Source of the DNA: Bacteroidota bacterium
Lineage (GTDB): Bacteria > Bacteroidota > Bacteroidia > Bacteroidales > JAAUTT01
Assembly (NCBI GenBank): GCA_030706405.1
Contig: JAUZOO010000010.1
Coordinates: forward strand, 82,127-146,126
Length of the DNA: 64,000 bases
Direction: 5' to 3'
Shown here: piece by piece, positions 284-14,302 of the stretch
How positions within the stretch are numbered: position 1 is the stretch's first letter
Layout: every line of letters starts with the position of its first letter
Notes under the pieces: generated by a model
Database searches by the model: none
What the model saw: the letters and a program-made list of their open reading frames with translations, nothing else
What the model was told of the DNA's origin: nothing
Translations under genes and position numbers: made by a program

Positions 284-314
284 TCTTGAATCTTGGTTCT
301 TGGCTCTTGAATCT
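284..314 (+). repeat. Heptamer tandem array (TCTTGRN)x4
   Basis: TCTTGAA TCTTGGT TCTTGGC TCTTGAA TCT just before the queD ATG. Confidence 0.8.
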
Positions 315-320
315 AAAACA

Positions 321-737
321 ATGAAATACGTAGTTACCAAAGAATTCAGGTTTGAAGCAGCCCATCGGCTGTTAAAACATTATTCGGGCAAATGTACCAA
401 TAACCACGGGCATTCGTGGCTTGTACGCCTGCACCTCGAGGGCGAGAACCTTGACGAGAAGGACATGCTCATCGACTTTCAGGAGCTCAAAGCTTTAAAA
501 GTCTGGATAGACGACCAGCTCGACCATGCTTCGTTGCTTTGGGAACAAGACCCTATGCTTGACTATATTAAAAGCTCGGGGCAACGCTTATATGTGACCG
601 TCAAGAACCCGACTTCGGAGCATATTGCCGAAGTTATCCTGAAGGAAGCAATTCGTTTATTTGAGAACTCGCGCATCCGTGTAAAGTGTATTGAAGTAAA
701 CGAAACATGCACCACAGGAGCGAAGATTTACCCTTAA
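321..737 (+). CDS. queD: 6-carboxy-5,6,7,8-tetrahydropterin synthase
   Basis: FEAAHRL, CxNxHGHSW, LDH, NPTSEHIA and V-x-ET motifs; ATG at 321 preferred to the TTG at 300. Confidence 0.92.
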   Translation: MKYVVTKEFRFEAAHRLLKHYSGKCTNNHGHSWLVRLHLEGENLDEKDMLIDFQELKALKVWIDDQLDHASLLWEQDPMLDYIKSSGQRLYVTVKNPTSEHIAEVILKEAIRLFENSRIRVKCIEVNETCTTGAKIYP

Positions 738-753
738 AAATCAATAACAATAT

Positions 754-1137
754 ATGGCCGATTTTAATTTTTTGGGCAAGAAAGTCAATGCCCCATCCAA
801 ACAGCTTGATACTTTTCCAAAACCTGCCAATGTTCAGGTGGTAAAGTTCGAGAGCAATGAGCTTACTAGCTTTTGTCCGGTGACAAGTCAACCCGATTTT
901 AACACGGTAACCATTGAGTTTGCTCCGGATAAATTGTGTGTGGAAAGTAAAAGCTTAAAGCTTTATCTGTGGTCGTTTCGCGAGGAAGCTATTTTTGCCG
1001 AAGGCTTGGCCAATACCATGGCCGAAGACCTGTACAATGCACTTCAACCGCATTGGGTAAAAATTACGCTGATGCAAAATATACGTGGTGGCTTACAATT
1101 ATCGGTAGTTGCTGAAAAGAAAAAAGGGAGCGAATAA
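754..1137 (+). CDS. queF: preQ1 synthase (NADPH-dependent 7-cyano-7-deazaguanine reductase), unimodular type
   Basis: CPVTSQPDF catalytic Cys/Asp, QueF motif ESKSLKLYL, RGG near the C-terminus. Confidence 0.88.
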   Translation: MADFNFLGKKVNAPSKQLDTFPKPANVQVVKFESNELTSFCPVTSQPDFNTVTIEFAPDKLCVESKSLKLYLWSFREEAIFAEGLANTMAEDLYNALQPHWVKITLMQNIRGGLQLSVVAEKKKGSE

Positions 1138-1152
1138 ATTTCACTCCCTTTT
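1122..1152. terminator. Hairpin between convergent queF and Hpt genes
   Basis: AAAAGGGAGCGAA / TTCACTCCCTTTT inverted repeat overlapping the queF stop. Confidence 0.65.
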
Positions 1153-1176: not shown

Positions 1177-1563
1177 CTAGTTGTTTTTTATTTTTTCATA
1201 TTCCAGCAAAAGGCAAGGTAAGGCAAAATCACAATATTCAATAGCATTCATCACGAGCTCCTGAACTTCCTTTGCTTTTTCCTCATCCGGGATGCGGGAC
1301 AACTCCTCAGAGAATATTTCGATAGTTTTCATATTTTTTACAATGGCCCCAAATCCCATCAGCGGAAGGATGGGTATAAATTTGTGAGAAGCCATCCGTA
1401 ACCCCTTCCAATCTTGTTGTTCAAGAGTTTGTTTCAGTTTGGTCATAACTTCGGGAAGGGTTGCAATGCACTGATCCAGCATTCCTGTGACAAAATCATC
1501 ACCTATACTCGAATAACTCATTAAATATGACAGATCAATCTGCACTTCTTCTATTTGAGCCAT
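1177..1563 (-). CDS. Stand-alone Hpt (histidine phosphotransfer) protein, paralog of 8770-9144
   Basis: IDLSYL start and helical bundle with W...SHKF...G around the phospho-His position. Confidence 0.75.
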   Translation of the reverse strand: MAQIEEVQIDLSYLMSYSSIGDDFVTGMLDQCIATLPEVMTKLKQTLEQQDWKGLRMASHKFIPILPLMGFGAIVKNMKTIEIFSEELSRIPDEEKAKEVQELVMNAIEYCDFALPCLLLEYEKIKNN

Positions 1564-1850
1564 AATAATATATTCTCCTGTAAATTAAACAATAGCATCT
1601 ATAAGTATAAACATTTTTTGCAGATTAAGCGATATTCAATGCCTTAATGAGTAAAACTTAAACGAGGTCTCCCTAAACAAAAAATCATCTGATAATTTAG
1701 CGAAACTAATAATTTAGAATTAATTATAAACCACATACTGAGACAAAATATTCAGGCATTTACAACAAAATTTCAGAGCCGATTACCATTTCAATGCTTC
1801 CTGCCTTGGGAATAGACGATCCCCCTTTCTTCGGAAAATGCAAAAATATA

Positions 1851-3281
1851 TTATGGTTTTTTCCCAAATCCCTTCCGAGTCATTTCCCCCCATTCTTTTT
1901 TTCCTTTAAAAAAATAATCGTAATTACCTTTAAGGCTCCAATAAACACCTAAGGGGTGGAATATAAAGGGTTCGAGCATTGCTGTTAAAATTAATTTCAG
2001 GATATCAGTTTTTCGGGTATATTGATGAAATGAAATTTCTTCAGCAACAATCGCCCACATCGAGAACATCACCGAAAGGCTGTAAACAAAAATGAACAAG
2101 ATGAGGAAAACCATAAAGTTGATATTTCCTCCGATAGCCAGAAACGTAAAATAAATAAGGCCAAAGAACTCGGTAAACGGGGCCAACCATTCGAAAAAAA
2201 ACCAATAAGGAAAGCTTATAAGTCCCAATCGACCGTACTTCGGGTTAGCAAACATTACTTTATGCATGCGTAGCGAATCGATTGTTCCTCTGGCCCATCT
2301 GTTCCTCTGACGGCCCAATATGTTTAGAGAATCAGGAACTTCTGTCCAACATAATGGATCGGGAATGAAGGTTACCAAGTATTTCCCCAGGTTGTGATCG
2401 TGCATATACCGCCGCATGCGAACAACGAGCTCCATATCTTCTCCCACGGTTTTATGGTTGTACCCTCCGGCTTTGACTGCAATTTCACGATCGAACAAAC
2501 CAAAGGCCCCCGAAATAAGCAATAATCCGTTAAGTTTACTCCAGGCCATCCTGCCAAGGATAAAAGCCCTAAAATATTCCAACACTTGAAATCGAGCCCA
2601 AAGGTTTTTTGGTAAGACGACGGTCTTAATTCTTCCGTTTTCGATTTCGCATGAATTGGCAACCCGCACTACTCCTCCGGAGGCTATCACTTTTTTATCT
2701 TTTTCTTCAATAAATGGCTTTACCATTTTCAATAAGCCATCGTATTCAATAATACAGTCAACATCGATGGTGGCAAATAACCGTTTGGAAGAAACGTTGA
2801 TGCCTGCATTGAGGGCATCGGCTTTACCTCCGTTTACCTTGTCAATGAGCGTTAGCTTGCTGAAAGCCGGATTGGGAGATTTATATACACCTCGTATCGG
2901 CTGGCATTCAATTTGGTAGTTAACGGCAAAATCTACCTTCACCATATTATATTCTTCAATCATGCGCTCAAGGGTATCGTCTTTACTTCCGTCGTTGACA
3001 ATAATAACTTCAAAATCAACGTAATGTAACGATAGTAGCGACCGGGCATTTTCCACAATGGTTTTACCTTCGTTATAGGCCGGAGCCAGAATAGAAACGG
3101 AAGGTGCTAGTGGAGACGTCATTATTGGAGAAAGATCGACATATCGGTTTTTTCTCAGATAATGAATCAATGCTATTGCCGATAATATAGCCAAAGTAAA
3201 GTAGATGGTAAATATAACCACGCAGTAGATTAATAAACCAAAATCGAGCAATTTCTGAAGATAGTAAACATAAAGTTCCAT
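1851..3281 (-). CDS. Processive GT2 glycosyltransferase (PgaC/IcaA-like polysaccharide synthase)
   Basis: DGSKD, NGGKADALN, DVD, GED and QRNRW motifs; N-terminal and C-terminal TM helices. Confidence 0.9.
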   Translation of the reverse strand: MELYVYYLQKLLDFGLLIYCVVIFTIYFTLAILSAIALIHYLRKNRYVDLSPIMTSPLAPSVSILAPAYNEGKTIVENARSLLSLHYVDFEVIIVNDGSKDDTLERMIEEYNMVKVDFAVNYQIECQPIRGVYKSPNPAFSKLTLIDKVNGGKADALNAGINVSSKRLFATIDVDCIIEYDGLLKMVKPFIEEKDKKVIASGGVVRVANSCEIENGRIKTVVLPKNLWARFQVLEYFRAFILGRMAWSKLNGLLLISGAFGLFDREIAVKAGGYNHKTVGEDMELVVRMRRYMHDHNLGKYLVTFIPDPLCWTEVPDSLNILGRQRNRWARGTIDSLRMHKVMFANPKYGRLGLISFPYWFFFEWLAPFTEFFGLIYFTFLAIGGNINFMVFLILFIFVYSLSVMFSMWAIVAEEISFHQYTRKTDILKLILTAMLEPFIFHPLGVYWSLKGNYDYFFKGKKEWGEMTRKGFGKKP

Positions 3282-3283
3282 GG

Positions 3284-5008
3284 CTAAATTCGTTTATCAT
3301 TTACATGACGTATCAGGGAACGAAGTTCGTCGTCGGCTTCAACAAATGAAATTTTAATGATGTCTTCGCCAGTACGGTTGGTATTTTGCAACGCTTTTAA
3401 AGCAGCTAACCTTATGGCATAATCATGTTCTTCCTTAATCGTTTTTATTAACCACGGCTGACAGCTTTGAATCGGGAGACGCTGAATTACCTTCAAAATA
3501 TTAATTTTATTCTGGTAGGTTTCGATCTGATAAAAATTCATCAATGGCTCAACAGATTGTGGAAGCGATAACTGACCCAATGCAAAAATAGAAGCTTCTC
3601 TTATTCGAGGGCTACCATGCCGAAGCAACTCAATAATTCGGTCATAATTGTTAACCTGACCTAAATGTCCTGATAACCTTAATGCAAAAATAACTACCGT
3701 ATCATTGGATGATTCGAACAGTGGTTCAAGGTTAATGTTTTGATTTTCATGTTCTATCGCGTTTATAATATGAATGTACTCATATTCCGAAAGCGTATAT
3801 TTGTAAAATTTAAGGAACGATAATGCATCGGGCGAATCATCGAGTCTTATCAGGGCAATTTGAGCTTCCATCCTCAAGACTTCGTTACGGCTACTTATTA
3901 ATTGTTGAATTAGCGTAATAGGGGCTTTGTAATCAAAGCATGCCGCTTCCTGCACTGCCTTAATTTTTTTAGGCCATCGTCCGTATCTAAAAGCTCTTCC
4001 GGCGTCTTCTGTAAGTTTTAGTTTGTAGTACAAATCTTTGGCTATAAATGCGATGTCGCCTGTCAAGTTTTTATGAAGTGTCATTAATTGCCGGGATATT
4101 AAATTTCGCCGGTAGCGGGACTGGCGAGCGTTTCGGCTTAATTTCCGGAGAGCAGTCATGGCTTCTCTAGAATCCGGATCATTATAAACATAATTGATAA
4201 TGTAGTTTTGATACAGATTTTGTAAATGCTTGCTAACAACTGAAATAACAGTTTTTATAATTCTTGATACGATTACAAATCCAAAAAATAAAATTGTATT
4301 AATGTTAAATACAAAAATGCAGTACAAAATAATGTTGAGGCGGACAGACATGGCTCTGGTTTCTGCGAAATAAAGCGAAATAAACTGTTGAACCACGTTA
4401 AAACTATAAATGGCACTAACGACTACCCAACAAATAAGTACAAAAAAAATGAAGTAACTAAAAAGATTAAAATAACCTTGCGCAACAACATTTTGTATTC
4501 TCCGGTGAATAACAGCAATGATGATGATAAAAATAAGGACCCCAAAGGAGAAGTATTTATAAAATGGCAATCCAAACATCAAAATATCAATACTATTTAT
4601 CCTAAAAAACGTTAACGCAAAATACGCTCCCCAAACACCAACAATAATTCCTACTAAAGACAGAATAATTGTTATATGTTTGGTTATAAATGATATAATT
4701 GACGATGTATTATTGCGATAGAGAAATACAAGAGGAACTAGTATGGCAAATAAGAAAGAGATTGTTTTATAGCCAGAATCGAGGAAGCAGACAATATCTG
4801 CTGTATTTACAGGGTGTCTTAAATATAAAACAAAGAGGAGCAACCCTGAAAGACCTATGATAAACAAGTGAATAAAGTAGCTTTTCAATAAATGAATAAA
4901 ATAAGCATATCTTGAACTAACCCTGAAATTAACAATCAGCAGGAATATCACCATTAAAAAAGATGATATTTTATACAAGGCTAAACCGCTGTTAATAAAA
5001 AAAACCAT
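3284..5008 (-). CDS. Multi-pass membrane protein with C-terminal HEAT repeats
   Basis: Hydrophobic N-terminal ~250 aa; HEAT-like units (VLRMEAQIAL, RIREASIFALGQL, AIRLAALKAL); alternative ATG at 4351. Confidence 0.75.
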   Translation of the reverse strand: MVFFINSGLALYKISSFLMVIFLLIVNFRVSSRYAYFIHLLKSYFIHLFIIGLSGLLLFVLYLRHPVNTADIVCFLDSGYKTISFLFAILVPLVFLYRNNTSSIISFITKHITIILSLVGIIVGVWGAYFALTFFRINSIDILMFGLPFYKYFSFGVLIFIIIIAVIHRRIQNVVAQGYFNLFSYFIFFVLICWVVVSAIYSFNVVQQFISLYFAETRAMSVRLNIILYCIFVFNINTILFFGFVIVSRIIKTVISVVSKHLQNLYQNYIINYVYNDPDSREAMTALRKLSRNARQSRYRRNLISRQLMTLHKNLTGDIAFIAKDLYYKLKLTEDAGRAFRYGRWPKKIKAVQEAACFDYKAPITLIQQLISSRNEVLRMEAQIALIRLDDSPDALSFLKFYKYTLSEYEYIHIINAIEHENQNINLEPLFESSNDTVVIFALRLSGHLGQVNNYDRIIELLRHGSPRIREASIFALGQLSLPQSVEPLMNFYQIETYQNKINILKVIQRLPIQSCQPWLIKTIKEEHDYAIRLAALKALQNTNRTGEDIIKISFVEADDELRSLIRHVNDKRI

Positions 5009-5061
5009 TCCTGATTGTGTAGATTTTTACTGTATAACAGACAATTGCAAAACTTTAGGCT

Positions 5062-7095
5062 TTATTTGATTTTTGACCAATTGTGGTACAATGTATCGGG
5101 AATAATATGATTGGTGGAACAAACATAATTGTTGAGCCTTTTAAAATTTTCAAAGTCTTTCTGCAATTCTTTGGTTTGTTCCGTTTTATCAACGGCATCA
5201 ATGGTAAGATTATCGTTAATATTATATAGAACGTTGGAAGATAGAAAGTTCAATCCTTTTATGTAATCGACCATCTCGTTTTTGTTGCGCATCAGGGGGT
5301 AGGCATGTATATTCCTGAAAGTTCTAATAGTATCGAGCCCAATCCCCATCCAATGAGCCAAGCTGGGGAATTTCATGTCGTAATTATTGCTTAGGAATGC
5401 TAATATGCTAGGAGTTATATCAAACTGGACGGAAACAGACGAAAATTTTGCCGGGCGCTTCAACATAGGTGAATAGATCACCAAAGGCACGTGAAACCTG
5501 TCGAGCTGCGTGCTTATCGGAATTTCGGGCATACGATGATCGCCCGTAATCACAAAAATGGTGTTCTTAAAATCCGGTCGTTTGGAATACGCTGAAATGA
5601 AATAGCGCAAAGCATCATCGAAATAAAGCATGGAAGCAAACTGAGGCTTGTAGTTTCTTCGTTCCCTTTTTTCTTGTTCGCTAAGATTTAACGTATTAAG
5701 TTGGGCCTCAAACCTGTTGTTATAATACTCTTGATTGGGGACTCTGAAAGGATCGTGCATGGCAAGGGTAAGCGCAATATCCAGGCGGGGTTTGGTATTT
5801 ACAACGGTGGCGGATTCAAGTATTTTTCTGAAAATTTCCCGATCACCATATCCCCAGGCAAATCCTTTATTATTTGCAGGAAGCTTGGAATAACCCGGAC
5901 CAAACGATTTTGTATCCGTGATTTTATCAATACCCTGAGCATGCATAAATACATCCATCAGGTCGAAATGAGCATCGCCTCCATATATAAAACTGCTTTG
6001 GTAGCCCTGAGATTTTAGCAACCGAATCAGCGAGAGATGACGTGGCATTTTGTCATTCAACTCATTAAAACCCTTATCCCCAAACGGGAGAGACCCAAAG
6101 ACGGATGGTAATACCGCAAATGTCCGACCTCCCGTACTCAAGAAATTCTCCCAATATAAACTTTTTTGCATCAACGAATCAAGGAATGGGGTAAAACTTC
6201 CCAAATAAGCATTTTCGCCACTATACGCCCTGCCCAAACTCTCGACCAAGATGAATACTAAATTGGGCTTTTGACTTTTATTAATCGTAAAAAAATTACC
6301 CAAAACATCCGTCGAATCAACAGTATGCAGAAGTGGGTATTCCTTGTTTACATAATGAAATGAAATTTTCGACGAGCCAACATTCAGTTGGTTAAATGAC
6401 AGACTTTTCCGCTGATTACGTTTATCTTCCTCTTCTTTAAAGTAATTGTATGTTTTGGAAATAAAGAAGCCCAATTTATTACTCGCTAAATACGACTCAT
6501 ATTCTGTCTTAAACCGTCCGGACGAAGGTGAAGAATAATCATTCAACAAAAGACTTATAGCCACTGCTATGTAAAAAAAGTAGAAGACAAGATTCGGAAA
6601 ATTTTTGTTTCGTAAAAGCCACCATAAAAAAGCTACAAAAGCCAGAAATAGTAAAAACGGCATCAATGTTAATACCCTAAGCCCTCCGGATGCGCCAACG
6701 GTATGACTGATTTCGGAAAAAGAATAACCGAACAAATCAGATCCGAGTGGTACCAGGGAGGTGGCAAAATATAACTGCAATACGATGGATGTAATCGTTA
6801 TAAGGATAACACACGCCCCAAAAAACCATTCTGCAACACGTGATTTTAACAAAAATAAAAGACAATAGGGAATTACCAGAAACGCACATATCCTCAAAAA
6901 AACATAACCATCGCACAGTAATCCATAGAATTCGGCCCGAAGGCTGCTTTGAGAAAAATGACAAGTACTGCAAATCGCAAATGCCTCGTAAATACGAAGG
7001 GTTATAATAACCAGAAGAAGAATCGCACAATAAGCGATATAACGCCGTGTCGCGTGCATTAACCGTTCGAGCGACGTGGATGAGGTTTCTTCCAT
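5062..7095 (-). CDS. LTA synthase family / alkaline-phosphatase-superfamily membrane phosphotransferase
   Basis: About 5 N-terminal TM helices, then NLVFILVES, GGRTF (catalytic Thr position), TLAMHDPF, TGDHR. Confidence 0.88.
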   Translation of the reverse strand: MEETSSTSLERLMHATRRYIAYCAILLLVIITLRIYEAFAICSTCHFSQSSLRAEFYGLLCDGYVFLRICAFLVIPYCLLFLLKSRVAEWFFGACVILITITSIVLQLYFATSLVPLGSDLFGYSFSEISHTVGASGGLRVLTLMPFLLFLAFVAFLWWLLRNKNFPNLVFYFFYIAVAISLLLNDYSSPSSGRFKTEYESYLASNKLGFFISKTYNYFKEEEDKRNQRKSLSFNQLNVGSSKISFHYVNKEYPLLHTVDSTDVLGNFFTINKSQKPNLVFILVESLGRAYSGENAYLGSFTPFLDSLMQKSLYWENFLSTGGRTFAVLPSVFGSLPFGDKGFNELNDKMPRHLSLIRLLKSQGYQSSFIYGGDAHFDLMDVFMHAQGIDKITDTKSFGPGYSKLPANNKGFAWGYGDREIFRKILESATVVNTKPRLDIALTLAMHDPFRVPNQEYYNNRFEAQLNTLNLSEQEKRERRNYKPQFASMLYFDDALRYFISAYSKRPDFKNTIFVITGDHRMPEIPISTQLDRFHVPLVIYSPMLKRPAKFSSVSVQFDITPSILAFLSNNYDMKFPSLAHWMGIGLDTIRTFRNIHAYPLMRNKNEMVDYIKGLNFLSSNVLYNINDNLTIDAVDKTEQTKELQKDFENFKRLNNYVCSTNHIIPDTLYHNWSKIK

Positions 7096-7163
7096 AAACG
7101 ATAATTTTCAGATGTCTGATAAAAAAATATACTCGTCTCTTTAAATAGCTACCTTACAATGTA

Positions 7164-8396
7164 CTAAAATATACGCCGAACCGTGATGTCTATCGTAAAT
7201 TTATTACGGAATAATGAAGAATAGTATTCTTCCCGCTCATAGGCTGTACTTAATCCATAGTACCAAAGTCTGGCAAAATGCTGATTATAGCTGATTTTTA
7301 TTTTATCGGATTGTAATCGGATGTTATCGGCAGATTGGAGGTACTTGTGAATATCATCGGGCGAGGAGCCGTGACTGTACTGAATTCCAAGATAGTTTTC
7401 GGCTTCGGCAAAATAACGTCTCACTTGGAAAATGCTGGTAAAAGAAACATTTCCGCCACTTGGTGTGACGAATGGACGATAGCTTAACCAGTAATTCCCA
7501 AGGTATTTACCTACCGAACCTGTATAAATGGCAACATCTGAAGTGGCAAATTTCAGATAACGAAGTCCCAATGATGCCTCAAAACCGGCAGGAAGGTTCT
7601 CGTAGAACTCAGCACCACTGCGGTATTTGGGGAATAAACCGGATGCCGAATATCCCAGGTTGAGGTACATATAATTGTTCATCCCGGTTTTCGGATAAGC
7701 ATCGGCTTCAACCTGCAATCCATTACTTTCGAAACGGTTGGCATAGTTTAACCGGCCAATCATCGTCCCTATCGCCGTTTTTCGGGAATATTGCAGGTAC
7801 GACCAATACCAGGGCTGCCCACTGCTAAAAAAATCGGTTACGTAATTAACGGATAAACTGTTTTTCATATTGGAGACTTCCAATGTCGAGAACAATGACT
7901 TTGCTTTCTCATTGTCCGGATTTACTTTCAGCAGCTTATTGATTTCAACGATGGCCTCATTGTACTTTTTAAGATTTTGAAGTGCCTCTGCTTTTTGGAA
8001 CAGATACTCTTCGTTGGCAGGAGTATTGGCTAAAGCGGCATTGACAATATCAAGAGCTGCCGTTGGATTTCCGGCCCATAATTCAACATTTATGCGGGCG
8101 TTGGTCACTTCTTCGCTGGTTGGCAATTTTCCTGCAACTTGTTTCAGCGCGTTACGGGCATCATCGTACTTCCTGTCCCAAGAATAAAGTAATCCCAAAT
8201 AGAAGCGTACATCATTGTCATCTTTTGCTTTAAGAATATCCCGACATAACTTTTGGGCATCGCCATAATTATTGCTTTTAGCTAATTGCTTAGCCCGAGA
8301 AAATAGCGAATCAGTATTGGAGGTATTTTGAGCCTGCAAACCCCAATGCCCTCCAATTAAAAACAGGAAATTTAAACAGACGATAAACTGCTTCAT
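7164..8396 (-). CDS. TPR repeats plus YaiO-family outer membrane beta-barrel
   Basis: Signal peptide, TPR-like helices (aa 25-175), beta-strands with RLNYANRF and EADAYPK, terminal Phe. Confidence 0.82.
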   Translation of the reverse strand: MKQFIVCLNFLFLIGGHWGLQAQNTSNTDSLFSRAKQLAKSNNYGDAQKLCRDILKAKDDNDVRFYLGLLYSWDRKYDDARNALKQVAGKLPTSEEVTNARINVELWAGNPTAALDIVNAALANTPANEEYLFQKAEALQNLKKYNEAIVEINKLLKVNPDNEKAKSLFSTLEVSNMKNSLSVNYVTDFFSSGQPWYWSYLQYSRKTAIGTMIGRLNYANRFESNGLQVEADAYPKTGMNNYMYLNLGYSASGLFPKYRSGAEFYENLPAGFEASLGLRYLKFATSDVAIYTGSVGKYLGNYWLSYRPFVTPSGGNVSFTSIFQVRRYFAEAENYLGIQYSHGSSPDDIHKYLQSADNIRLQSDKIKISYNQHFARLWYYGLSTAYEREEYYSSLFRNKFTIDITVRRIF

Positions 8397-8761
8397 CTAT
8401 TTTGTTTGATTAATAATTTTTTAATACGCAATAATAACTCATTGGGACTAAATGGTTTGGTAATATAATCATCGGCTCCCATTTCCAGAGCTTTTACTAC
8501 GGTATCTTCCTGCCCAATTGCCGAGAGCATTACCAGGGGGGTACTTCTTTGAAGCGTTATGCGTAAATAGCTAAGTATTTCCAGCCCATTGGCATAAGGC
8601 ATCATAACATCGGAGATGATAAGATCGGGGTTCTGTTCCGTTATCTTCTCCATACCTTCTTTCCCGTCGGCTGCAAGTATTACCTCGTATCCTTCCCGTG
8701 CCAGTTTAAACTCGATGGCTTTAAGTACAATTACTTCATCTTCAATTACTAATATTTTCAT
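8393..8761 (-). CDS. Single-domain response regulator (receiver only)
   Basis: KILVIEDE, DLIISDVMMP, GADDYITKPF; 122 aa with no output domain; 4-bp overlap with the barrel gene. Confidence 0.92.
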   Translation of the reverse strand: MKILVIEDEVIVLKAIEFKLAREGYEVILAADGKEGMEKITEQNPDLIISDVMMPYANGLEILSYLRITLQRSTPLVMLSAIGQEDTVVKALEMGADDYITKPFSPNELLLRIKKLLIKQNR

Positions 8762-8769
8762 TTTGCAAA

Positions 8770-9144
8770 TTATTCCTTAATTTTTCCATATTCCTGTAAA
8801 AGCTCAGTTAATGCAAGTTGACAATATTCGATAGCGTTTAAAACAAGATTGCGGAGCTCTTTCTCTTTTTCCGGATTATACGTTTTAGAAAGCTTCTCTA
8901 TTGCTTGCATATCGCTTAAAATTGCCCCAAAACCGGCAAACGGAATTACAGAAATAAATTTATGGGATTCCTCATACAATTTTTCCCAGTTTTGTTGTTC
9001 GAGGTTAAGCTTAAGCTTAGGGATTACATCCATAACGGATTCGATACATTGTTCCATCATATCGCTCATAAACTTCTTATTGCCATTGGAATAATCAATT
9101 AGATATGATAAATCGATATACTGTAAATCGTTACGTTGTGCCAT
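8770..9144 (-). CDS. Stand-alone Hpt domain protein
   Basis: IDLSYL...W...SHKF...GF; ATG at 9144 matches the MAQ start of the paralog at 1177-1563. Confidence 0.75.
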   Translation of the reverse strand: MAQRNDLQYIDLSYLIDYSNGNKKFMSDMMEQCIESVMDVIPKLKLNLEQQNWEKLYEESHKFISVIPFAGFGAILSDMQAIEKLSKTYNPEKEKELRNLVLNAIEYCQLALTELLQEYGKIKE

Positions 9145-9280
9145 AATCAAAAATATAATTTAAAAATTGTGGTGTAAAATGTAGAGACTTCAATGACATT
9201 GAAGCTTAAGCAACTTTTTAAAATTATAAATAAATTTTACTAAAAGATAAAAAGCTTCCTAATTAATATTTACAGGGCTT

Positions 9281-10303
9281 TTAAGTTGGTTTTACGGACG
9301 ATGCCCGCACTACCAACTGCGATTTCAATACTACCTGCATGGGTACCATTTTTTCACCTTGCTTGCCCTGACGTAAAAAAAGGCGGGCGGCCTCCTGACC
9401 AATCTCATAAGTAGGGTGCATTACATTGGTAAGCTGAGGATCTACAAGGGTAGCATGGAATTCGTCGGTAATTGCTACTAGTGAAATATCGTCAGGAATG
9501 CGTAATCCCTGGCGTTTGATTTCTTTCATGGCGGCAAACGAAACGGTATCGTTAACACTAAAAATTGCATCAGGAGGTTTGGGTAACGACAACAACTGAC
9601 GGGTAGCTTCGGTAGCTTCGCTTTCGGTGAGGTTGGTAAATTTAATCAGAGACTCGTCAGCGGAAAATCCGCAATCGGCCAATCCGCTGAGATAACCTTC
9701 GTAACGATCTTTGGCAATGCTCAACGTTTGTGGCCCGGCAATATGGGCAATACGTCGGGCTCCTCCGTCATAAAAATGAATGGTGAGTTCCCGTGCAATT
9801 TCGCGGTTATCGGTCACAACGCTCGATACTTCAGACGTTCGGCAAATTCTGTCGAAGAATACCAGTGGCATCTCGTTATTGATAATTTTGTCGAAATGAT
9901 TGTAGTCGACCGTATCCCTCGCAAGACATATAATTAAACCTTCCACCCTCGACATCAGGAGGTTTTCGATACATTCCTTTTCTTTTTCGTACGATTCGTT
10001 AGATGAACTGATAATGATGTAATACCCATTTTCTTTGGCCACCTGCTCAATACCACTAATAATAGATGAGTAAAAATACGTTACAAGGTCGGGAACAATA
10101 ACGCCAATGGTTTTGGTTTGCTGGCGCAAAAGTCCCATAGCCAATGGGTTAGGTGAGTAATTCCATTCGCGAGCTAAAGACTGTACTTTGGCCGTAACTT
10201 CCGGGCTGATATCGGGATGGTTTTTCAATGCCCGCGAAACTGTTGATATTGAAACCTGTAAGGCCGAAGCGATATCCTTTAAAGAAACCGGGTGTTTTGT
10301 CAT
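9281..10303 (-). CDS. LacI family transcriptional regulator
   Basis: SLKDIA...VSISTVSRAL HTH, YSPNPLA hinge, sugar-binding domain. Confidence 0.95.
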   Translation of the reverse strand: MTKHPVSLKDIASALQVSISTVSRALKNHPDISPEVTAKVQSLAREWNYSPNPLAMGLLRQQTKTIGVIVPDLVTYFYSSIISGIEQVAKENGYYIIISSSNESYEKEKECIENLLMSRVEGLIICLARDTVDYNHFDKIINNEMPLVFFDRICRTSEVSSVVTDNREIARELTIHFYDGGARRIAHIAGPQTLSIAKDRYEGYLSGLADCGFSADESLIKFTNLTESEATEATRQLLSLPKPPDAIFSVNDTVSFAAMKEIKRQGLRIPDDISLVAITDEFHATLVDPQLTNVMHPTYEIGQEAARLFLRQGKQGEKMVPMQVVLKSQLVVRASSVKPT

Positions 10304-10380
10304 TTGATTTTCAGATATTTATTACCAAATCTAAGCTAAAGATCATTTTAAAGTATGTTTTACAACATAATTTATGTTCC

Positions 10381-10404
10381 GCAAAGCTTTGCGCAAAGCT
10401 TTGC
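10381..10404. promoter_or_regulatory. Putative tandem LacI operator
   Basis: Two abutting perfect palindromes GCAAAGCTTTGC between the divergent lacI-family gene and sugar operon. Confidence 0.65.
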
Positions 10405-10540
10405 AAAAATAATACCAATTTCAGCTATTGCAATCCATGAAATCTTTTAGGAGTTTTGATGTGTTTGTGCAGCAAAATTCTGCATTTAATTTTAACAAAA
10501 ACGGCTTATAACTAAAACTTAACATCATTACTACTATATA

Positions 10541-11587
10541 ATGGAATACAAAGAAATAGGTAAAACCGGGATAAAAGTTCCTCCTATTGTTTTCGGCACA
10601 AGTGCATTAGGAAATTTATACGAAGCCCTGAGTGATGATACCAAACTTAGCATCGTGAGCGAAGCTTTTGCCCACATGCCCAAACCGGTAGTGTTTGACA
10701 GCGCTGGAAAATACGGAGCGGGACTGGCTCTTGAAATGCTGGGCAAATGTCTGCATAAATTAAATATAAGCCCTGAAGATGTTATAATCAGCAATAAACT
10801 GGGCTGGATACGGACTCCGCTAACTACTCCCGAACCCACTTTCGAACAAGGCGTTTGGATGGATCTTAAAAACGATGCTGTCCAAAATATCAGCTACGAC
10901 GGTATCATTACCTGTTGGGAACAGGGCAATGAACTGCTCGGAGGTACCTACAAACCCCAACTGGTTTCGGTTCACGACCCGGACGAGTACCTGAATACCG
11001 CCACTTTCGATGAGGAAAGGAGAATACTTTTTAGCCATATTCTCGACGCTTATAAAGCCCTTTCGGACCTGAAAGCACAGGGAAAAGTAAAAGCTGTGGG
11101 CATTGGCGCTAAAAACTGGAAAGTCATCCAACAGGTTTCGGAACATATCGATCTCGATTGGGTGATGTTCGCCAACAGCATGACTATCATGAACCATCCG
11201 GCTGATCTGCTCGAATTTATGGGCAAACTTCACAAAAAAGGCGTGAGCATCATCAACTCGGCAGTATTTCATGCAGGGTTTCTCACCGGAGGCTCATTTT
11301 TCGATTATAAGCTCATTAAGCCCGATACGGAAGAAAACAAAGCCAAATTCAGATGGAGAGACGACTTTAACGTCATTTGTAAAAAATTCGACATTAAACC
11401 GGCTACGGCATGCGTTCAGTTTGGGATGACTGCTCCCGGCGTGGTTAGCATATCGCTGAACACCTCTGCACCTAAACGGGTAAAAGACAACGTCGCATCG
11501 GTAGTTGCCGAAATTCCAAAAGGTTTTTGGGCAGAGATGATACAAAAAGGACTAATCAGCAAAGATTATCCATATCTTGGGATTTAA
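10541..11587 (+). CDS. Aldo/keto reductase (L-galactose/L-fucose 1-dehydrogenase-like)
   Basis: FGTSALGNLY, DSAGKYGAG, HDPDEY; operon context. Confidence 0.8.
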   Translation: MEYKEIGKTGIKVPPIVFGTSALGNLYEALSDDTKLSIVSEAFAHMPKPVVFDSAGKYGAGLALEMLGKCLHKLNISPEDVIISNKLGWIRTPLTTPEPTFEQGVWMDLKNDAVQNISYDGIITCWEQGNELLGGTYKPQLVSVHDPDEYLNTATFDEERRILFSHILDAYKALSDLKAQGKVKAVGIGAKNWKVIQQVSEHIDLDWVMFANSMTIMNHPADLLEFMGKLHKKGVSIINSAVFHAGFLTGGSFFDYKLIKPDTEENKAKFRWRDDFNVICKKFDIKPATACVQFGMTAPGVVSISLNTSAPKRVKDNVASVVAEIPKGFWAEMIQKGLISKDYPYLGI

Positions 11588-11624
11588 TAACAACCTAATA
11601 CGTAACATTAATAACATTTAATTC

Positions 11625-12863
11625 ATGGAAAAGCACAAACTGACGACCAAAGATTTTTTGGTCCCGTTTATTCTGATTTCTTCTTTATTTTTTTTATGGG
11701 GTATTGCCCACGGTATGCTTGATACGCTAAATAAGCATTTTCAGGATATGCTACACCTGTCGAAAGCACAGTCCGGCATGATCCAGTTTTCGGTCTATAC
11801 CGCTTATTTTTCGATAGCTTTACCTGCCGGCTATTTTATGCGTCGCTTCGGGTATAAAAAAGGTATTATTTTAGGATTATCGCTTTTTGCAAGTGGAGCA
11901 TTCTTAATTGCTGCCACGTGTTCGTTCGAATCATTTTGGTTGTTCCTTGTCTGTTTGTTTATTATGGGATGTGGACTTGCAACCCTCGAAACAGCAGCCA
12001 ACCCCTATACTACTAAACTTGGACCAAAGGAATCGGCCGAACGCCGTATTAACTTTTCTCAGTCGTTTAACGGACTAGCGTGGGTTATCGGGCCACTAAT
12101 CGGATTGTTTATTTATGGAAATCAGAGCAACGTTGCTGGAGAAAAATTAAGCTCCATGATTCTGCCTTACTGTGTTATAGGTACCGTAGTTTTGTTGGTT
12201 GCGCTTCTTTTTCTGAAGGTTAAACTTCCTGAAATTACAGAAGAGACTGAAGAATTTAACCATAATGCAGCCTCCGCTGCCGACGAAGCATTTCATCATA
12301 AACCGCTGATCAAACAACGTCATTTTGTTTTTGGAGTAATCGCACAATTCTCTTACGTTGCCGCTCAAACTGGTATTTTCAGTTACCTCATCAACTTTGT
12401 AACTGACGAAAGCCAAAATCCACATTTCGATGTAGCCAAAGGCCCCATATTCCTGTCTATCGGCTTTGCATTGTTTATGATTGGCCGTATGTCCGGAAGT
12501 TATTTCATGCGTCTTTTCCAACCCAATAAAATGTTGGCCTTATATGCCCTATTATGTTGTGTCCTGTTGCCGGTAGTAAGTGCCAACCTTGGCTGGATTT
12601 CGCTTATCTGCCTCTATTCAACCTTCTTCTTTATGTCCATTATGTTCCCGACAATCTTCGCACTTGGGATTAAAGACTTAGGCCCCAAAACAAAAAAGGC
12701 TGCATCGTTTATTGTGATGGCCATTGTTGGAGGAGCGGTTTTCCCTCCGGTAATGGGTCTCATCGCCGATAAATTTAATATGTCCATCGGATTTTTTGCT
12801 CCTATTCCGTTCTTCTTGTTTATCCTTTATTATGCCTTAAAGGGAAGTGTGATAAAAAAATAG
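11625..12863 (+). CDS. FucP-like MFS sugar:H+ symporter
   Basis: LFFLWG, LETAANPY, RINFSQSFNGL, MSIMFPTIFAL. Confidence 0.88.
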   Translation: MEKHKLTTKDFLVPFILISSLFFLWGIAHGMLDTLNKHFQDMLHLSKAQSGMIQFSVYTAYFSIALPAGYFMRRFGYKKGIILGLSLFASGAFLIAATCSFESFWLFLVCLFIMGCGLATLETAANPYTTKLGPKESAERRINFSQSFNGLAWVIGPLIGLFIYGNQSNVAGEKLSSMILPYCVIGTVVLLVALLFLKVKLPEITEETEEFNHNAASAADEAFHHKPLIKQRHFVFGVIAQFSYVAAQTGIFSYLINFVTDESQNPHFDVAKGPIFLSIGFALFMIGRMSGSYFMRLFQPNKMLALYALLCCVLLPVVSANLGWISLICLYSTFFFMSIMFPTIFALGIKDLGPKTKKAASFIVMAIVGGAVFPPVMGLIADKFNMSIGFFAPIPFFLFILYYALKGSVIKK

Positions 12864-12867
12864 AATA

Positions 12868-13242
12868 ATGGAATACCTCGAAAATACAACTTATACCTCG
12901 TTCAAGCGTTTTTGTAAGACGTTGGAACTGCGTAATAATCCGGATTTGATTGCAGCCTATAAAAAGGCTCACTCAAAAGGCCAGGTCTGGCCCGAGATTA
13001 CCCAGGGCATGCGCGAAGTGGGGATTCTCGATATGGAGATTTACCTCCTTGGAACCAGGCTTTTTATGATTATGGATACTGTTCCGGATTTCGATCACGA
13101 AAAAGCCATGGCAGAGTTGGCCACCAAGCCTCGTCAGGCCGAATGGGAAGCGCACATGGCTCAGTTTCAGGATTCTTCCGCTGAGGCTACGGCCGACGAA
13201 AAATGGCAACTCATGGAGCGTATCTTTAAATTTGGAGAATAG
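12868..13242 (+). CDS. L-rhamnose/L-fucose mutarotase family protein
   Basis: YKKAH...WPEI...GILDMEIY...W pattern. Confidence 0.88.
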   Translation: MEYLENTTYTSFKRFCKTLELRNNPDLIAAYKKAHSKGQVWPEITQGMREVGILDMEIYLLGTRLFMIMDTVPDFDHEKAMAELATKPRQAEWEAHMAQFQDSSAEATADEKWQLMERIFKFGE

Positions 13243-13252
13243 ATTATTAAAG

Positions 13253-13341
13253 TAATTAAGTGATTAAGGAATTAGGTGATTGAGATAAATCTTAATTATA
13301 TAATTACTTAATCACTTAGTTTCTTAATTATTTCATCACTT
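13253..13341. repeat. Inverted pair of octamer tandem arrays
   Basis: TAATTAAG TGATTAAG GAATTAGG TGATTGAG followed by CTTAATTA TATAATTA CTTAATCA CTTAGTTT CTTAATTA. Confidence 0.75.
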
Positions 13342-13347
13342 ATAACA

Positions 13348-14184: not shown

Positions 14185-14233
14185 AGGGTACTTAGTACCA
14201 AGTATTGAGACAGAATAACCTGAGTTTTAAAAA

Positions 14234-14262
14234 AGTCCCCCTTGGGGGGATTTAGGGGGGCT
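14234..14262 (+). repeat. REP-like C-run/G-run element
   Basis: AGTCCCCCTTGGGGGGATTTAGGGGGGCT; near-identical copy at 63355-63381. Confidence 0.8.
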
Positions 14263-14302
14263 TCCCCTCTATTTAAATTCTTCATATAAATTAAAAATCA
14301 AG

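What the first reader, a model, noticed from the sequence alone, without database searches (positions are those of the whole stretch)
1177..9144. Candidate undescribed exopolysaccharide system: processive GT2, HEAT membrane partner, LtaS-like modifier and TPR-barrel exporter wired to a phosphorelay
Seen: six tightly packed co-oriented genes (gaps 8, -4, 68, 53 and 2 bp) plus a trailing Hpt gene. The GT2 has the D,D,D,QxxRW processive signature (QRNRW), and the TPR plus beta-barrel protein has the layout of PgaA/BcsC. Established: synthase-dependent systems (Bcs, Pga, Alg, Pel) pair a synthase, an inner-membrane partner, a modifier and a TPR/porin, and are usually switched on by c-di-GMP. No PilZ, GGDEF or deacetylase is recognisable here. 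Inference: a Bacteroidota pathway for a modified, possibly GlcNAc-based polymer, activated post-translationally by a phosphorylated receiver binding the HEAT repeats instead of by c-di-GMP.
Basis: partly seen in the sequence, partly recalled or inferred. Interest (0 to 1): 0.82.

Follow-up and report, generated by a model that had tools for sequence, protein, structure and literature searches.

The report
Phosphorelay-linked polysaccharide synthase operon of Bacteroidota
This operon looks like an undescribed sugar-polymer synthesis and export machine that is widespread in Bacteroidota and seems to be switched by a phosphorylated receiver protein rather than by the usual messenger c-di-GMP.

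Summary
On the minus strand, 9144 to 1177, lie Hpt, a single-domain receiver (REC), a TPR + YaiO-type barrel, an LtaS/OpgB-like transferase, a 7-TM HEAT protein and a processive GT2 (QRNRW). The gaps are as stated, and a paralogous Hpt follows.

It is not a chance cluster. In 80 loci picked by GT2 similarity alone, a HEAT gene sits directly upstream of the GT2 in 79. Of the 59 loci with at least 5 kb upstream, 55 have a single-domain REC, 52 a TPR-YaiO gene and 20 an LtaS-like gene. Natural GT2-LtaS fusions exist. Hybrid kinases ending in Hpt sit beside the REC in other genomes.

A complex prediction of REC with the HEAT cytoplasmic domain passed: 0.71 against 0.23 for the best control. The genome has no GGDEF, EAL or PilZ match.

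My reading is a Bacteroidota-wide synthase-dependent polysaccharide system, undescribed in the literature I searched and regulated through a phosphorelay. The polymer's identity and the activation step are not shown. The LtaS-like enzyme and the stand-alone Hpt are accessory parts. This copy appears to be a xenologue that replaced the genus-typical locus.

The parts
8770..9144 (-). HptA: stand-alone histidine phosphotransfer protein (124 aa from ATG 9144), the likely phosphodonor to the REC
   Evidence: Pfam Hpt 21.1 bits, below the 24.6 cut-off. H61 is invariant in 15 homologues. The profile hits BarA Hpt 3iqt at E 5.3e-10. In other genomes a stand-alone Hpt or a kinase-borne Hpt lies directly upstream of the REC.
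8393..8761 (-). Single-domain receiver (REC, 122 aa) with OmpR/PhoB-like sequence and no output domain; proposed regulator that docks on the HEAT subunit
   Evidence: Response_reg 102.7 bits. E7, D8, D51 and K102 are invariant in 33 cluster-linked RECs. A single-domain REC is present in 55 of 59 and 37 of 48 loci. The complex prediction with the HEAT domain scored 0.71 against 0.23 for the best control.
7164..8396 (-). Outer-membrane protein: signal peptide, about five TPRs (28-176) and a YaiO-type beta-barrel (179-409); proposed exporter
   Evidence: PF19413 205.9 bits and TIGR04390 168.9 bits. AF2 model pLDDT 90.6 with 14 strands. Foldseek top hits are BcsC 9b8a (E 3e-11) and PelBC 9h80 (E 7.7e-9); the barrel alone resembles OmpG. 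Present in 52 of 59 loci.
5062..7095 (-). LtaS/OpgB-like alkaline-phosphatase-superfamily enzyme: five N-terminal hydrophobic segments and an extracytoplasmic catalytic domain. Proposed to decorate the polymer with a lipid-derived phospho-head-group. Accessory part.
   Evidence: Sulfatase PF00884 114.7 bits; best NCBIfam hit is OpgB PRK12363 at 47.3 bits, far below its cut-off. Best PDB sequence hits are 3lxq (E 9.1e-23) and LtaP 4uop (E 2.6e-7), with ESL, Thr and GDH motifs aligned. Hydropathy. Fused to the GT2 in 6 of 48 and 5 of 80 loci.
3284..5008 (-). Membrane HEAT protein: about 7 TM helices (1-259) and a cytoplasmic alpha-solenoid (about 260-574); proposed obligatory partner of the synthase and docking site for the REC
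   Evidence: HEAT_2 54.5 bits. Hydropathy. AF2 model has pLDDT above 90 from about residue 240. Only generic solenoid matches were found in the PDB. The family has 671 representatives at E<=1e-10, and its conserved core is residues about 220-574. It lies directly upstream of the GT2 in 79 of 80 loci.
1851..3281 (-). Processive family-2 glycosyltransferase (476 aa) with N- and C-terminal TM segments; the synthase
   Evidence: Pfam GT2 families. PgaC_IcaA TIGR03937 122.8 bits against a cut-off of 422.3. Motifs NDGS96, DVD173, GED280 and QRNRW325 are invariant in 36 homologues.
1177..1563 (-). HptB: second stand-alone Hpt, 50% identical to HptA, 287 bp downstream of the GT2
   Evidence: BLASTP 50% identity, E 5e-41. 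The His is conserved. No trailing Hpt was seen in the related loci examined.
1116..1150 (.). Hairpin (7-bp stem AAGGGAG/CTCCCTT, 13-nt loop) followed by a T-run, between the convergent HptB and queF; a likely bidirectional terminator that closes the unit
   Evidence: Read directly from the sequence.

Best explanation
The region encodes a synthase-dependent machine for making and exporting a polysaccharide. It belongs to a family that is widespread in Bacteroidota and was not described in the literature I searched.

Proposed mechanism:
- The GT2 polymerises a nucleotide-sugar at the inner membrane and translocates the chain. This is inferred from its D, DxD, GED and QRNRW motifs and its transmembrane segments.
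- The GT2 works with an obligatory membrane-anchored partner whose cytoplasmic alpha-solenoid (HEAT) domain is the family's hallmark.
- The chain leaves through a small TPR + 14-strand YaiO-type barrel.
- In about a third of the systems, including this one, an LtaS/OpgB-like enzyme decorates the chain in the periplasm. The donor is probably phosphoglycerol or another phospho-head-group taken from a membrane lipid, by analogy with OpgB, LtaS and BcsG. This enzyme is sometimes fused to the synthase.
- Output is set by a phosphorelay: sensor hybrid kinase, then Hpt (here two stand-alone paralogues), then Asp51 of a single-domain receiver.
- The receiver is predicted to dock by its active-site face on the stalk helix and N-terminal cap of the HEAT domain, next to the membrane, and so to switch the synthase post-translationally. 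This is the role c-di-GMP receptors play in the Bcs, Pga, Alg and Pel systems.

Shown here: gene content, motifs, conservation, fusions, fold similarity, a passed complex prediction, and no match to c-di-GMP domains in this genome.

Inferred: that a polymer is made, what it is, that it is exported, and the direction and phospho-dependence of the switch.
For: Anatomy and motifs.

Conservation, set A: 80 loci chosen only by similarity to the GT2.
- HEAT lies directly upstream of the GT2 in 79 of 80. The exception is cut by the contig end.
- Of the 59 loci with at least 5 kb upstream: single-domain REC in 55, TPR-YaiO in 52, LtaS-like in 20, stand-alone Hpt in 9, large REC-containing proteins in 17.

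Conservation, set B: 48 loci chosen by HEAT match.
- GT2 in 46, HEAT adjacent to the GT2 in 43, single REC in 37, TPR-YaiO in 34, LtaS-like in 22.

GT2-LtaS single polypeptides occur in 6 of 48 and 5 of 80 loci. One of them carries both Pfam GT2 and Sulfatase domains.

Hybrid kinases with HisKA-HATPase-REC-Hpt lie next to the single REC in L013, L054 and L061.

The REC has invariant D8, D51 and K102. The Hpt has an invariant His and matches solved Hpt domains.

REC with HEAT residues 256-574:
- ipSAE 0.71, 0.69 and 0.71; best of 3 controls 0.23.
- The mark was reached by 58 of 80 solved complexes and 2 of 110 mismatched pairs. My own alignments were used, so these counts hold only roughly.
- The runs agree in at least 97% of contacts, and the partner's pLDDT is at least 87.
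- The interface on the HEAT chain includes 310-317, which holds the family's only invariant residue, G317.

Exporter: model pLDDT 90.6 with best PDB matches BcsC and PelBC.

c-di-GMP:
- No GGDEF, PilZ or EAL match in this 99.7%-complete genome, while the control genomes ring.
- GGDEF was found in none of the 32 same-class genomes that carry the HEAT family.

Natural experiment: at the genus-typical locus of this genome the unnamed ~390-aa single-TM protein ('U390'), HEAT and GT2 are missing together, while Hpt-REC and both flanks remain.

Precedent for a single-domain REC~P activating a polysaccharide enzyme by direct contact: EpsW-EpsZ in Myxococcus (PMC12802240; abstract and outline read).
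Against: - Nothing here is experimental. No polymer, no export and no phosphorylation has been shown.
- The GT2 is far below every equivalog cut-off (PgaC 122.8 against 422.3, CelA 32.2 against 699.1, NodC 40 against 550), so the sugar is unknown.
- The REC surface in the predicted complex (alpha1, the beta4-alpha4 loop and the beta5-alpha5 loop) is, as I recall, the face receivers use for Hpt or DHp helices. The pass could therefore partly be the model's memory of REC-helical-bundle complexes.
- The contacted motif around G317 is also kept in most of the loci where no single REC was found, so it does not track the REC.
- In other classes of the phylum the system coexists with GGDEF genes.
- No kinase is encoded in the window's cluster.
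- A 14-strand barrel is smaller than the known exporters, which have 16-18 strands as I recall.
- The LtaS-like protein's nearest named relatives are OpgB enzymes of periplasmic glucans, which fits a non-exported product as well.
- ORF calling was crude (longest ATG ORFs), the HMMs were built here, and sets A and B may share genomes.
Confidence: 0.6

Rival explanations
1. The biosynthetic machine is the same, but the receiver is not a direct allosteric switch of the synthase. It could be a phosphate sink or a branch point of a relay whose real output is transcriptional, for example the 229-235-aa receiver-containing regulator (output domain not checked) found upstream in same-genus loci. Its adjacency would then reflect co-regulation only.
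For: - The predicted interface uses the REC's phosphotransfer face, so it may be an artefact of the model's memory.
- The G317 motif is also conserved in loci without a single REC.
- Same-genus loci carry a 229-235-aa REC-containing protein two genes upstream.
- This genome keeps an orphan Hpt-REC pair with no synthase beside it.
Against: - The REC lies inside the operon, directly before the HEAT gene or the exporter gene, in 55 of 59 loci spanning many lineages of the phylum by their record titles.
- The complex passed with both kinds of control low: 0.00 and 0.23 with the partner replaced, 0.00 with the HEAT chain replaced.
- The REC has no output domain.
Confidence: 0.2
2. The product is not a secreted exopolysaccharide. 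It is a periplasmic or envelope-retained glycan, such as an osmoregulated-periplasmic-glucan-like oligomer decorated with phosphoglycerol (an OpgH/OpgB-like logic), and the barrel protein does some other job.
For: - The LtaS-like protein's best named NCBIfam hits are phosphoglycerol transferase I, OpgB (PRK12363 at 47.3 bits, PRK03776 at 36.8 bits).
- The genus-typical variant has no TPR-YaiO gene in the locus (L014, L015, L017, L019, L020).
- Control by a two-component system would suit an envelope-stress or osmotic response.
Against: - A TPR + barrel gene is in 52 of 59 loci, and its model matches the exporters BcsC and PelB best.
- No OpgH-named or OpgG-named family was listed for any cluster protein.
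- Some variants carry a DUF4838/GH20b-like putative hydrolase instead of the LtaS-like enzyme, as matrix-polysaccharide operons do.
Confidence: 0.12
3. This is a teichoic-acid-like pathway. The GT2 makes a glycolipid anchor, and the LtaS-like enzyme polymerises glycerol-phosphate on it.
For: The LtaS-like catalytic domain aligns with the Listeria LTA primase LtaP (4uop, E 2.6e-7), with the Thr and GDH motifs in place.
Against: - The LtaS-like gene is missing from about two thirds of the loci, so it cannot be the core polymerase.
- The GT2 has the QxxRW processive signature and C-terminal TM segments.
- The hit to LtaP is weak.
Confidence: 0.05

Closest known systems
Pga system (PgaABCD) for poly-beta-1,6-GlcNAc
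   Same: PgaC_IcaA is the GT2's best named NCBIfam hit. The logic is the same: an inner-membrane GT2, a small membrane partner needed for activity, and a TPR + barrel exporter.
   Different: - The scores are far below the equivalog cut-offs: PgaC 122.8 against 422.3, PgaA 24.3 against 366.65.
- There is no PgaB-type deacetylase.
- The partner is a HEAT solenoid protein, not PgaD.
- No c-di-GMP system was found in the genome.
- The modelled barrel has 14 strands.
E. coli type II cellulose system (BcsA/B/C with the pEtN transferase BcsG)
   Same: The exporter model's best PDB match is BcsC. A membrane alkaline-phosphatase-superfamily enzyme sits beside the synthase, as BcsG does for pEtN-cellulose (PMC11379886; only the search listing and the start of the abstract were seen).
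   Different: - BcsA scores 32.2 bits against a cut-off of 699.1.
- There is no PilZ and no BcsB.
- The modifier is Pfam Sulfatase (LtaS/OpgB-like), and no BcsG family was listed.
- Here the modifier can be fused to the synthase.
E. coli K-12 yaiS-yaiP-yaiX-yaiO cryptic operon
   Same: A YaiO barrel is encoded with a membrane GT2 (YaiP) and polymer-modifying enzymes. The window's barrel is a member of the YaiO family. YaiP carries an RWRRW motif at the matching place.
   Different: - YaiO has no TPR domain.
- YaiP is only 24% identical over 235 residues.
- The partners are a deacetylase and an acyltransferase broken by an insertion sequence.
- There is no HEAT, REC or Hpt.
- No product was described in the 30 of 65 'YaiO' papers listed, judging from titles and abstract starts.
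Myxococcus xanthus EpsW~P activating the phosphoglycosyl transferase EpsZ
   Same: A phosphorylated single-domain receiver switches polysaccharide synthesis post-translationally by direct contact with a membrane enzyme (PMC12802240; abstract read).
   Different: That is a Wzx/Wzy pathway, and the target is the initiating PGT itself. Here the pathway is synthase-dependent, and the predicted target is a separate HEAT subunit.
Pel system exporter PelB/PelC
   Same: A TPR + barrel exporter, and the second-best structural match (9h80).
   Different: Pel uses a GT4 (PelF) and the c-di-GMP receptor PelD (recalled). Neither is present here.
OpgH/OpgB osmoregulated periplasmic glucan pathway
   Same: A membrane GT2 together with a phosphoglycerol-transferase-like enzyme. 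The OpgB models are the LtaS-like protein's best named NCBIfam hits.
   Different: The scores are far below the cut-offs (47.3 against 572). No OpgG/D is present. An outer-membrane TPR-barrel gene is conserved in the cluster.

Membership tests
Synthase-dependent exopolysaccharide secretion systems (general kind) | Processive membrane-embedded GT2 with D, DxD, (T/G)ED and QxxRW motifs | tested here: met
   NDGS96, DVD173, GED280 and QRNRW325, invariant in 36 homologues. Hydrophobic segments at both ends.
Synthase-dependent exopolysaccharide secretion systems (general kind) | Outer-membrane TPR + beta-barrel exporter encoded with the synthase | tested here: met
   Model pLDDT 90.6 with TPR helices and 14 strands. 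Best PDB matches are BcsC and PelBC. Present in 52 of 59 loci.
Synthase-dependent exopolysaccharide secretion systems (general kind) | c-di-GMP receptor (PilZ, degenerate GGDEF or the PgaCD site) controlling the synthase | tested here: not met
   No such family in the cluster. No GGDEF, PilZ or EAL match in the genome.
Synthase-dependent exopolysaccharide secretion systems (general kind) | A secreted polymer depends on the synthase | not testable with these tools
   Needs genetics and chemistry.
PgaC/IcaA PNAG synthase (TIGR03937 equivalog) | Score at or above the curated cut-off | tested here: not met
   122.8 bits against 422.3.
Pga system | PgaB-type deacetylase and PgaA porin equivalog | tested here: not met
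   No deacetylase family in the cluster. PgaA TIGR03939 scored 24.3 bits against 366.65.
Bcs cellulose synthase (TIGR03030 CelA) | Score at or above the cut-off, and a C-terminal PilZ domain | tested here: not met
   32.2 bits against 699.1, and no PilZ.
YaiO outer-membrane barrel family (PF19413 / TIGR04390) | Score at or above the curated cut-offs | tested here: met
   205.9 bits against 23.9, and 168.9 bits against 32.
LtaS/OpgB-type phospho-head-group transferases (alkaline phosphatase superfamily, PF00884) | Sulfatase-fold domain with a metal-binding Glu, a nucleophilic Thr and a Asp-His pair, after an N-terminal multi-TM anchor | tested here: met
   PF00884 114.7 bits. ESL285, GGRT322 and GDH518 align with LtaP and 3lxq. 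Five hydrophobic segments. The motif roles are recalled from LtaS work.
OpgB phosphoglycerol transferase I (PRK12363 equivalog) | Score at or above the cut-off | tested here: not met
   47.3 bits against 572.
Hpt phosphotransfer domain (PF01627) | Four-helix-bundle domain with a conserved phospho-accepting His | tested here: inconclusive
   The Pfam scores of 21.1 and 17.7 are below the 24.6 cut-off. Against that, the His is invariant in 15 homologues, and the profile hits BarA and YPD1 Hpt structures. The fold itself was not modelled.
Response regulator receiver (PF00072) | Acidic pocket, phospho-acceptor Asp and conserved Lys | tested here: met
   102.7 bits. E7, D8, D51 and K102 are invariant in 33 sequences.

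The most novel reading that the evidence does not exclude
This is a further, Bacteroidota-wide family of synthase-dependent polysaccharide secretion systems. A phospho-receiver, fed by a hybrid-kinase/Hpt relay, replaces c-di-GMP as the allosteric switch. It acts by docking on a dedicated HEAT-solenoid subunit of the synthase. The nascent chain can be decorated with a lipid-derived phospho-head-group by an LtaS-like enzyme that in some species is fused to the synthase. If true, it would be the answer of a c-di-GMP-free bacterial class to the problem of gating matrix production.
Probability: 0.35. Interest if true: 0.85.

Novelty: new variant of a known kind. Interest (0 to 1): 0.72.

Why it matters
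The synthase-dependent systems I know of as characterised (cellulose, PNAG, alginate, Pel and relatives) are gated by c-di-GMP (recalled). GGDEF genes were found in only 3 of the sampled genomes of the window's class or order (one of them a weak match), and in none of the 32 same-class genomes that carry this system. How such bacteria control matrix polysaccharide output post-translationally is therefore open.

A conserved REC-HEAT-GT2 module gives a concrete, testable answer. It also gives the first functional context for three things:
- a large family now annotated only as 'HEAT repeat domain-containing' or 'hypothetical';
- YaiO-type barrels;
- synthase-fused LtaS-like enzymes.

Carriers include marine, soil and gut-associated lineages, judging from the record titles. 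The polymer could therefore matter for biofilms and particle colonisation by a dominant heterotrophic phylum.

Tried and rejected
- The protein-atlas search did not hold the HEAT protein or its homologue P0009, so it gave nothing.
- The search for related loci with the HEAT alignment A1 failed because no stretch was conserved enough. I used the genome search with A1 instead, and later search for related loci with the GT2 alignment A3.
- The word-based homologue search found only 7 HEAT relatives. The exhaustive search was needed.
- The fold search of the HEAT model returned only designed alphaRep/armadillo proteins and importins, which gives no functional lead.
- The PDB sequence search with the GT2 gave only N-terminal GT-A hits, the best being chondroitin synthase at E 2.9e-10.
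- The sigma-70 promoter scan was not enriched (26 found against 28.3 expected), and it listed no intergenic terminator.
- The recalled Bacteroidetes -7 motif TAnnTTTG was not enriched (80 against 71.7 expected). Copies sit just upstream of HptA (9148-9155) and just downstream of the GT2 stop (1841-1848), but I draw nothing from them.
- I tested whether the REC-contact motif of the HEAT protein is lost in loci without a REC. It is mostly kept, so the test does not discriminate.
- RNA evidence: no RNA holder was listed. Only two soil-metagenome DNA runs held small shares of the words. I did not lay reads.
- The ~390-aa single-TM protein was searched for in the window's genome with one query and not found.
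- The listing of cluster members gave almost no names or taxa.
- I considered the LacI gene at 9281-10303 as part of the system. I rejected this because it faces a divergent sugar-catabolism cluster and is not found beside the system elsewhere.
- Supplementary files of the papers were not consulted. The EpsW paper's genomic survey may list related REC-enzyme pairs that I did not see.

Full report
**What is there**

On the minus strand between 9144 and 1177 lie seven co-oriented genes:
- an Hpt-like protein (8770-9144);
- a 122-aa single-domain receiver, REC (8393-8761);
- a TPR + YaiO-barrel protein (7164-8396);
- a sulfatase-superfamily LtaS/OpgB-like membrane enzyme (5062-7095);
- a 574-aa protein with about seven hydrophobic segments followed by HEAT repeats (3284-5008);
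- a 476-aa family-2 glycosyltransferase, GT2 (1851-3281);
- after 287 bp, a second Hpt-like protein (1177-1563).

Pfam and NCBIfam confirm every domain call. The one caveat is that both Hpt hits fall just under Pfam's cut-off. The two Hpt proteins are 50% identical paralogues. Their family has an invariant histidine, and its profile matches solved Hpt domains such as BarA and YPD1.

The GT2 carries NDGS, DVD, GED and QRNRW, and these positions are invariant across 36 homologues. The LtaS-like enzyme keeps the ESL, Thr and GDH motifs, which align with the Listeria LTA primase and with 3lxq.

The flanks are unrelated. Upstream lie a LacI regulator and a divergent sugar-catabolism cluster. Downstream lie queD and queF. 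A hairpin with a T-run between HptB and queF probably ends the unit.

**Is it more than chance?**

Yes. I sampled neighbourhoods in two ways.

Set B is 48 loci found through the HEAT protein or its profile, in relatives and across the phylum. HMMs built here gave these counts:
- a GT2 in 46;
- HEAT and GT2 adjacent on one strand in 43;
- a single-domain REC in 37;
- TPR-YaiO in 34;
- an LtaS-like gene in 22.

By their record titles these come from Bacteroidales, Sphingobacteriales, Chitinophagales, Cytophagales and Flavobacteriales. That assignment rests on my knowledge of the names. In set A a HEAT gene sits directly upstream of the GT2 in 79 of 80, and the exception is cut by the contig end. 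Among the 59 loci with at least 5 kb upstream:
- 55 have a single-domain REC;
- 52 have TPR-YaiO;
- 20 have an LtaS-like gene;
- 9 have a stand-alone Hpt;
- 17 have a large REC-containing protein.

Both sets come from species-representative genomes and may overlap. Set A is biased towards the window's closest relatives. ORFs were called crudely as longest ATG frames.

The HEAT family itself is large. It has 1741 representatives at E<=0.001 and 671 at E<=1e-10 among clusters at 50% identity. Its conserved core is residues about 220-574, that is, the last transmembrane helix plus the solenoid. The number of N-terminal helices varies. In 401 sampled Bacteroidota genomes, 72 matched the profile at E<=1e-10. 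Of the 78 places listed, 55, lying in 51 genomes, begin at profile position 186 or earlier and so include the family-specific N-terminal part of the cytoplasmic domain. The rest match only generic HEAT repeats or fragments.

**Functional coupling**

Four observations go beyond mere neighbourhood.

1. The GT2 and the LtaS-like enzyme occur as one polypeptide in 6 of 48 and 5 of 80 loci. One of these was confirmed by Pfam to carry GT2 and Sulfatase domains. The modifier therefore works with the synthase. It is accessory, though, because about two thirds of loci lack it. Some loci instead carry a DUF4838/GH20b-like putative hydrolase.

2. Where the window has a stand-alone Hpt, other genomes have a hybrid kinase directly upstream of the single REC. 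These kinases have the order HisKA-HATPase-REC-Hpt, often with PAS and GAF sensor domains (L013, L054, L061). The relay kinase, then Hpt, then REC is thus encoded in cis elsewhere. The REC keeps D8, D51 and K102 in all 33 cluster-linked copies aligned.

3. A two-chain complex prediction of the REC with HEAT residues 256-574 passed.
   - ipSAE was 0.71, 0.69 and 0.71 against 0.23 for the best of three controls.
   - The mark was reached by 58 of 80 solved complexes and 2 of 110 mismatched pairs in the tool's calibration. I used my own alignments, so those counts hold only roughly.
   - The runs agree in at least 97% of contacts, and the partner's pLDDT is at least 87.
   - The contact involves REC residues 9-22, 82-83 and 102-107. 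On the HEAT chain it involves the stalk helix just after the last TM (263-275) and residues 307-320.
   - The 307-320 segment holds G317, the only invariant residue of the 57-sequence family alignment.

4. This genome offers a natural experiment. The genus-typical locus, as seen in relative L019, reads regulator, an unnamed ~390-aa single-TM protein ('U390'), Hpt, REC, HEAT, GT2, then two flanking genes. It is present on another contig, but there exactly U390, HEAT and GT2 are missing. The Hpt-REC pair (REC 83% identical to L019's) and both flanks remain. The window's GT2 is only 56-58% identical to the same-genus GT2s, which are 75-96% identical to one another. It is 67% and 62% identical to those of two other Bacteroidota records, and one of these (L093) shares the window's gene order. 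The cluster's G+C is 38.1% against 41.0% for the genome. The window's copy therefore looks like a xenologue that replaced the native synthase.

**The parts in more detail**

The HEAT protein's model is confident from about residue 240 onward (pLDDT above 90) and is an alpha-solenoid. Its transmembrane part is poorly defined. The PDB holds only generic solenoid look-alikes.

The barrel protein's model (pLDDT 90.6) has a signal peptide, nine TPR-type helices (about four to five TPRs) and 14 strands. Its best PDB matches are BcsC (E 3e-11) and PelBC (E 7.7e-9). The barrel alone is nearest the 14-strand OmpG. So the layout is that of the known exporters, in miniature.

E. coli K-12's own yaiO lies in an operon with a membrane GT2 (yaiP), a broken acyltransferase and a putative deacetylase. 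This suggests that YaiO-type barrels serve GT2 synthases more widely. YaiP is only 24% identical to the window's GT2.

**c-di-GMP**

The window's genome is 99.7% complete and gave no GGDEF, PilZ or EAL match, while the same searches rang in control genomes.

Across 401 Bacteroidota genomes, GGDEF was found in 215. Only 3 of these are in the window's class or order, and one of the three is a weak match. None of the three is among the 32 same-class genomes that carry the HEAT family. Other classes of the phylum carry both the system and GGDEF genes. The receiver-linked design is therefore not merely a substitute that arose where c-di-GMP is absent.

**Most likely mechanism, and its limits**

I read this as a synthase-dependent polysaccharide system. 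The GT2 polymerises and translocates the chain. The HEAT protein is its obligatory membrane-anchored cytoplasmic partner. The TPR-YaiO protein exports the chain. The LtaS-like enzyme adds a lipid-derived phospho-head-group in the periplasm. The REC, phosphorylated through Hpt, docks on the HEAT subunit beside the membrane to switch synthesis.

A documented precedent for a single-domain REC~P activating a polysaccharide enzyme by direct contact is EpsW-EpsZ in a Wzx/Wzy pathway (PMC12802240; abstract read).

The weak points are these:
- There are no experimental data.
- The sugar is unknown, because every equivalog cut-off is missed by a wide margin.
- The REC face in the model is the same one receivers use for Hpt or DHp helices (recalled), so the pass could partly be the model's memory.
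- The contacted motif is also kept in most loci that lack a REC.
- An OpgH/OpgB-like periplasmic product cannot be excluded.

**Novelty**

Seven full-text searches found no description of this system. The terms combined YaiO, HEAT repeat, glycosyltransferase, response regulator, synthase-dependent, Flavobacterium, PgaC, Bacteroidetes/Bacteroidota and BcsG.

The main text of the systematic survey of synthase-dependent operons (PMC7112194) contains none of the words 'Bacteroidetes', 'response regulator' or 'HEAT'. Database names for the HEAT protein are 'HEAT repeat domain-containing protein' or 'hypothetical protein'.

I rate it a new variant of a known kind. It is a synthase-dependent system with a new partner subunit, a new class of exporter barrel and a phosphorelay input.

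Noticed in passing
L173 (G000:C12:260702-264040) and its surroundings on that contig: The genus-typical locus survives in this genome as regulator (235 aa), Hpt and REC, followed directly by the two downstream flanking genes. The ~390-aa single-TM protein, HEAT and GT2 that relatives have there are missing together. This leaves an orphan Hpt-REC pair, with the REC 83% identical to a relative's.
   Followed up: partly
L014:7671-8816, L055:8324-9475, L077:10570-11751 and others: A conserved ~380-400-aa protein with one N-terminal TM segment and no Pfam match accompanies the system in 18 of 48 and 14 of 80 loci. It was not found in the window's genome with one query. It is probably a further subunit of unknown role.
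   Followed up: partly
L057:5837-19168 (also L070, L071, L073, L082, L069): A second flavour of the system carries a 729-744-aa DUF4838 protein with a GH20b-like N-terminus in place of, or besides, the LtaS-like enzyme. In L057 the two flavours sit in tandem. A GH20-like hydrolase would fit a HexNAc polymer, but that is only a hint.
   Followed up: partly
L057:8787-11177 and similar ~780-810-aa genes in L142, L147, L152, L164, L166, L168, L170: Longer LtaS-like proteins carry C-terminal TPRs. In L057, Pfam gives Sulfatase plus TPR_19 at residues 730-791. These may bridge to the exporter's TPRs.
   Followed up: partly
L053:7760-10363, L054:8448-10529, L056:9640-12027: In some genomes the HEAT domain is at the N-terminus of a 693-867-aa protein with a long extra C-terminal part, which in L053 holds a second HEAT hit near residue 730.
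   Followed up: no
G000 contig C1, about 309.7-326.3 kb, and contig C17, 2675-6031 (outside the window): The genome holds another LtaS-like gene (811 aa, 598.6 bits to my LtaS model) near a 422-aa GT2. A weaker LtaS-like gene (635 aa) lies nearby. A 1118-aa GT2-containing ORF lies on another contig. These may be further glycan systems.
   Followed up: no
L091:4070-8617 (E. coli K-12 yaiO-yaiX-yaiP-yaiS): E. coli's yaiO barrel gene lies in an operon with a membrane GT2, an acyltransferase broken by an insertion sequence and a putative deacetylase. This looks like a cryptic synthase-type polysaccharide locus. The 30 of 65 'YaiO' papers listed mostly use the gene as a PCR marker, judging from titles and abstract starts.
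   Followed up: partly
whole phylum sample: GGDEF genes are almost universal in some Bacteroidota classes (for example family f52 86 of 87, f55 17 of 17). In the window's class they were found in only 3 sampled genomes.
   Followed up: partly
window 9281-15322: A LacI-family regulator faces a divergent cluster of aldo-keto reductase, MFS transporter, rhamnose-mutarotase-like protein, amidohydrolase and Zn-dehydrogenase. This is probably a deoxy-sugar catabolic operon unrelated to the finding.
   Followed up: no
window 300-1137: queD-like (PTPS) and queF genes of queuosine synthesis lie convergent with HptB.
   Followed up: no
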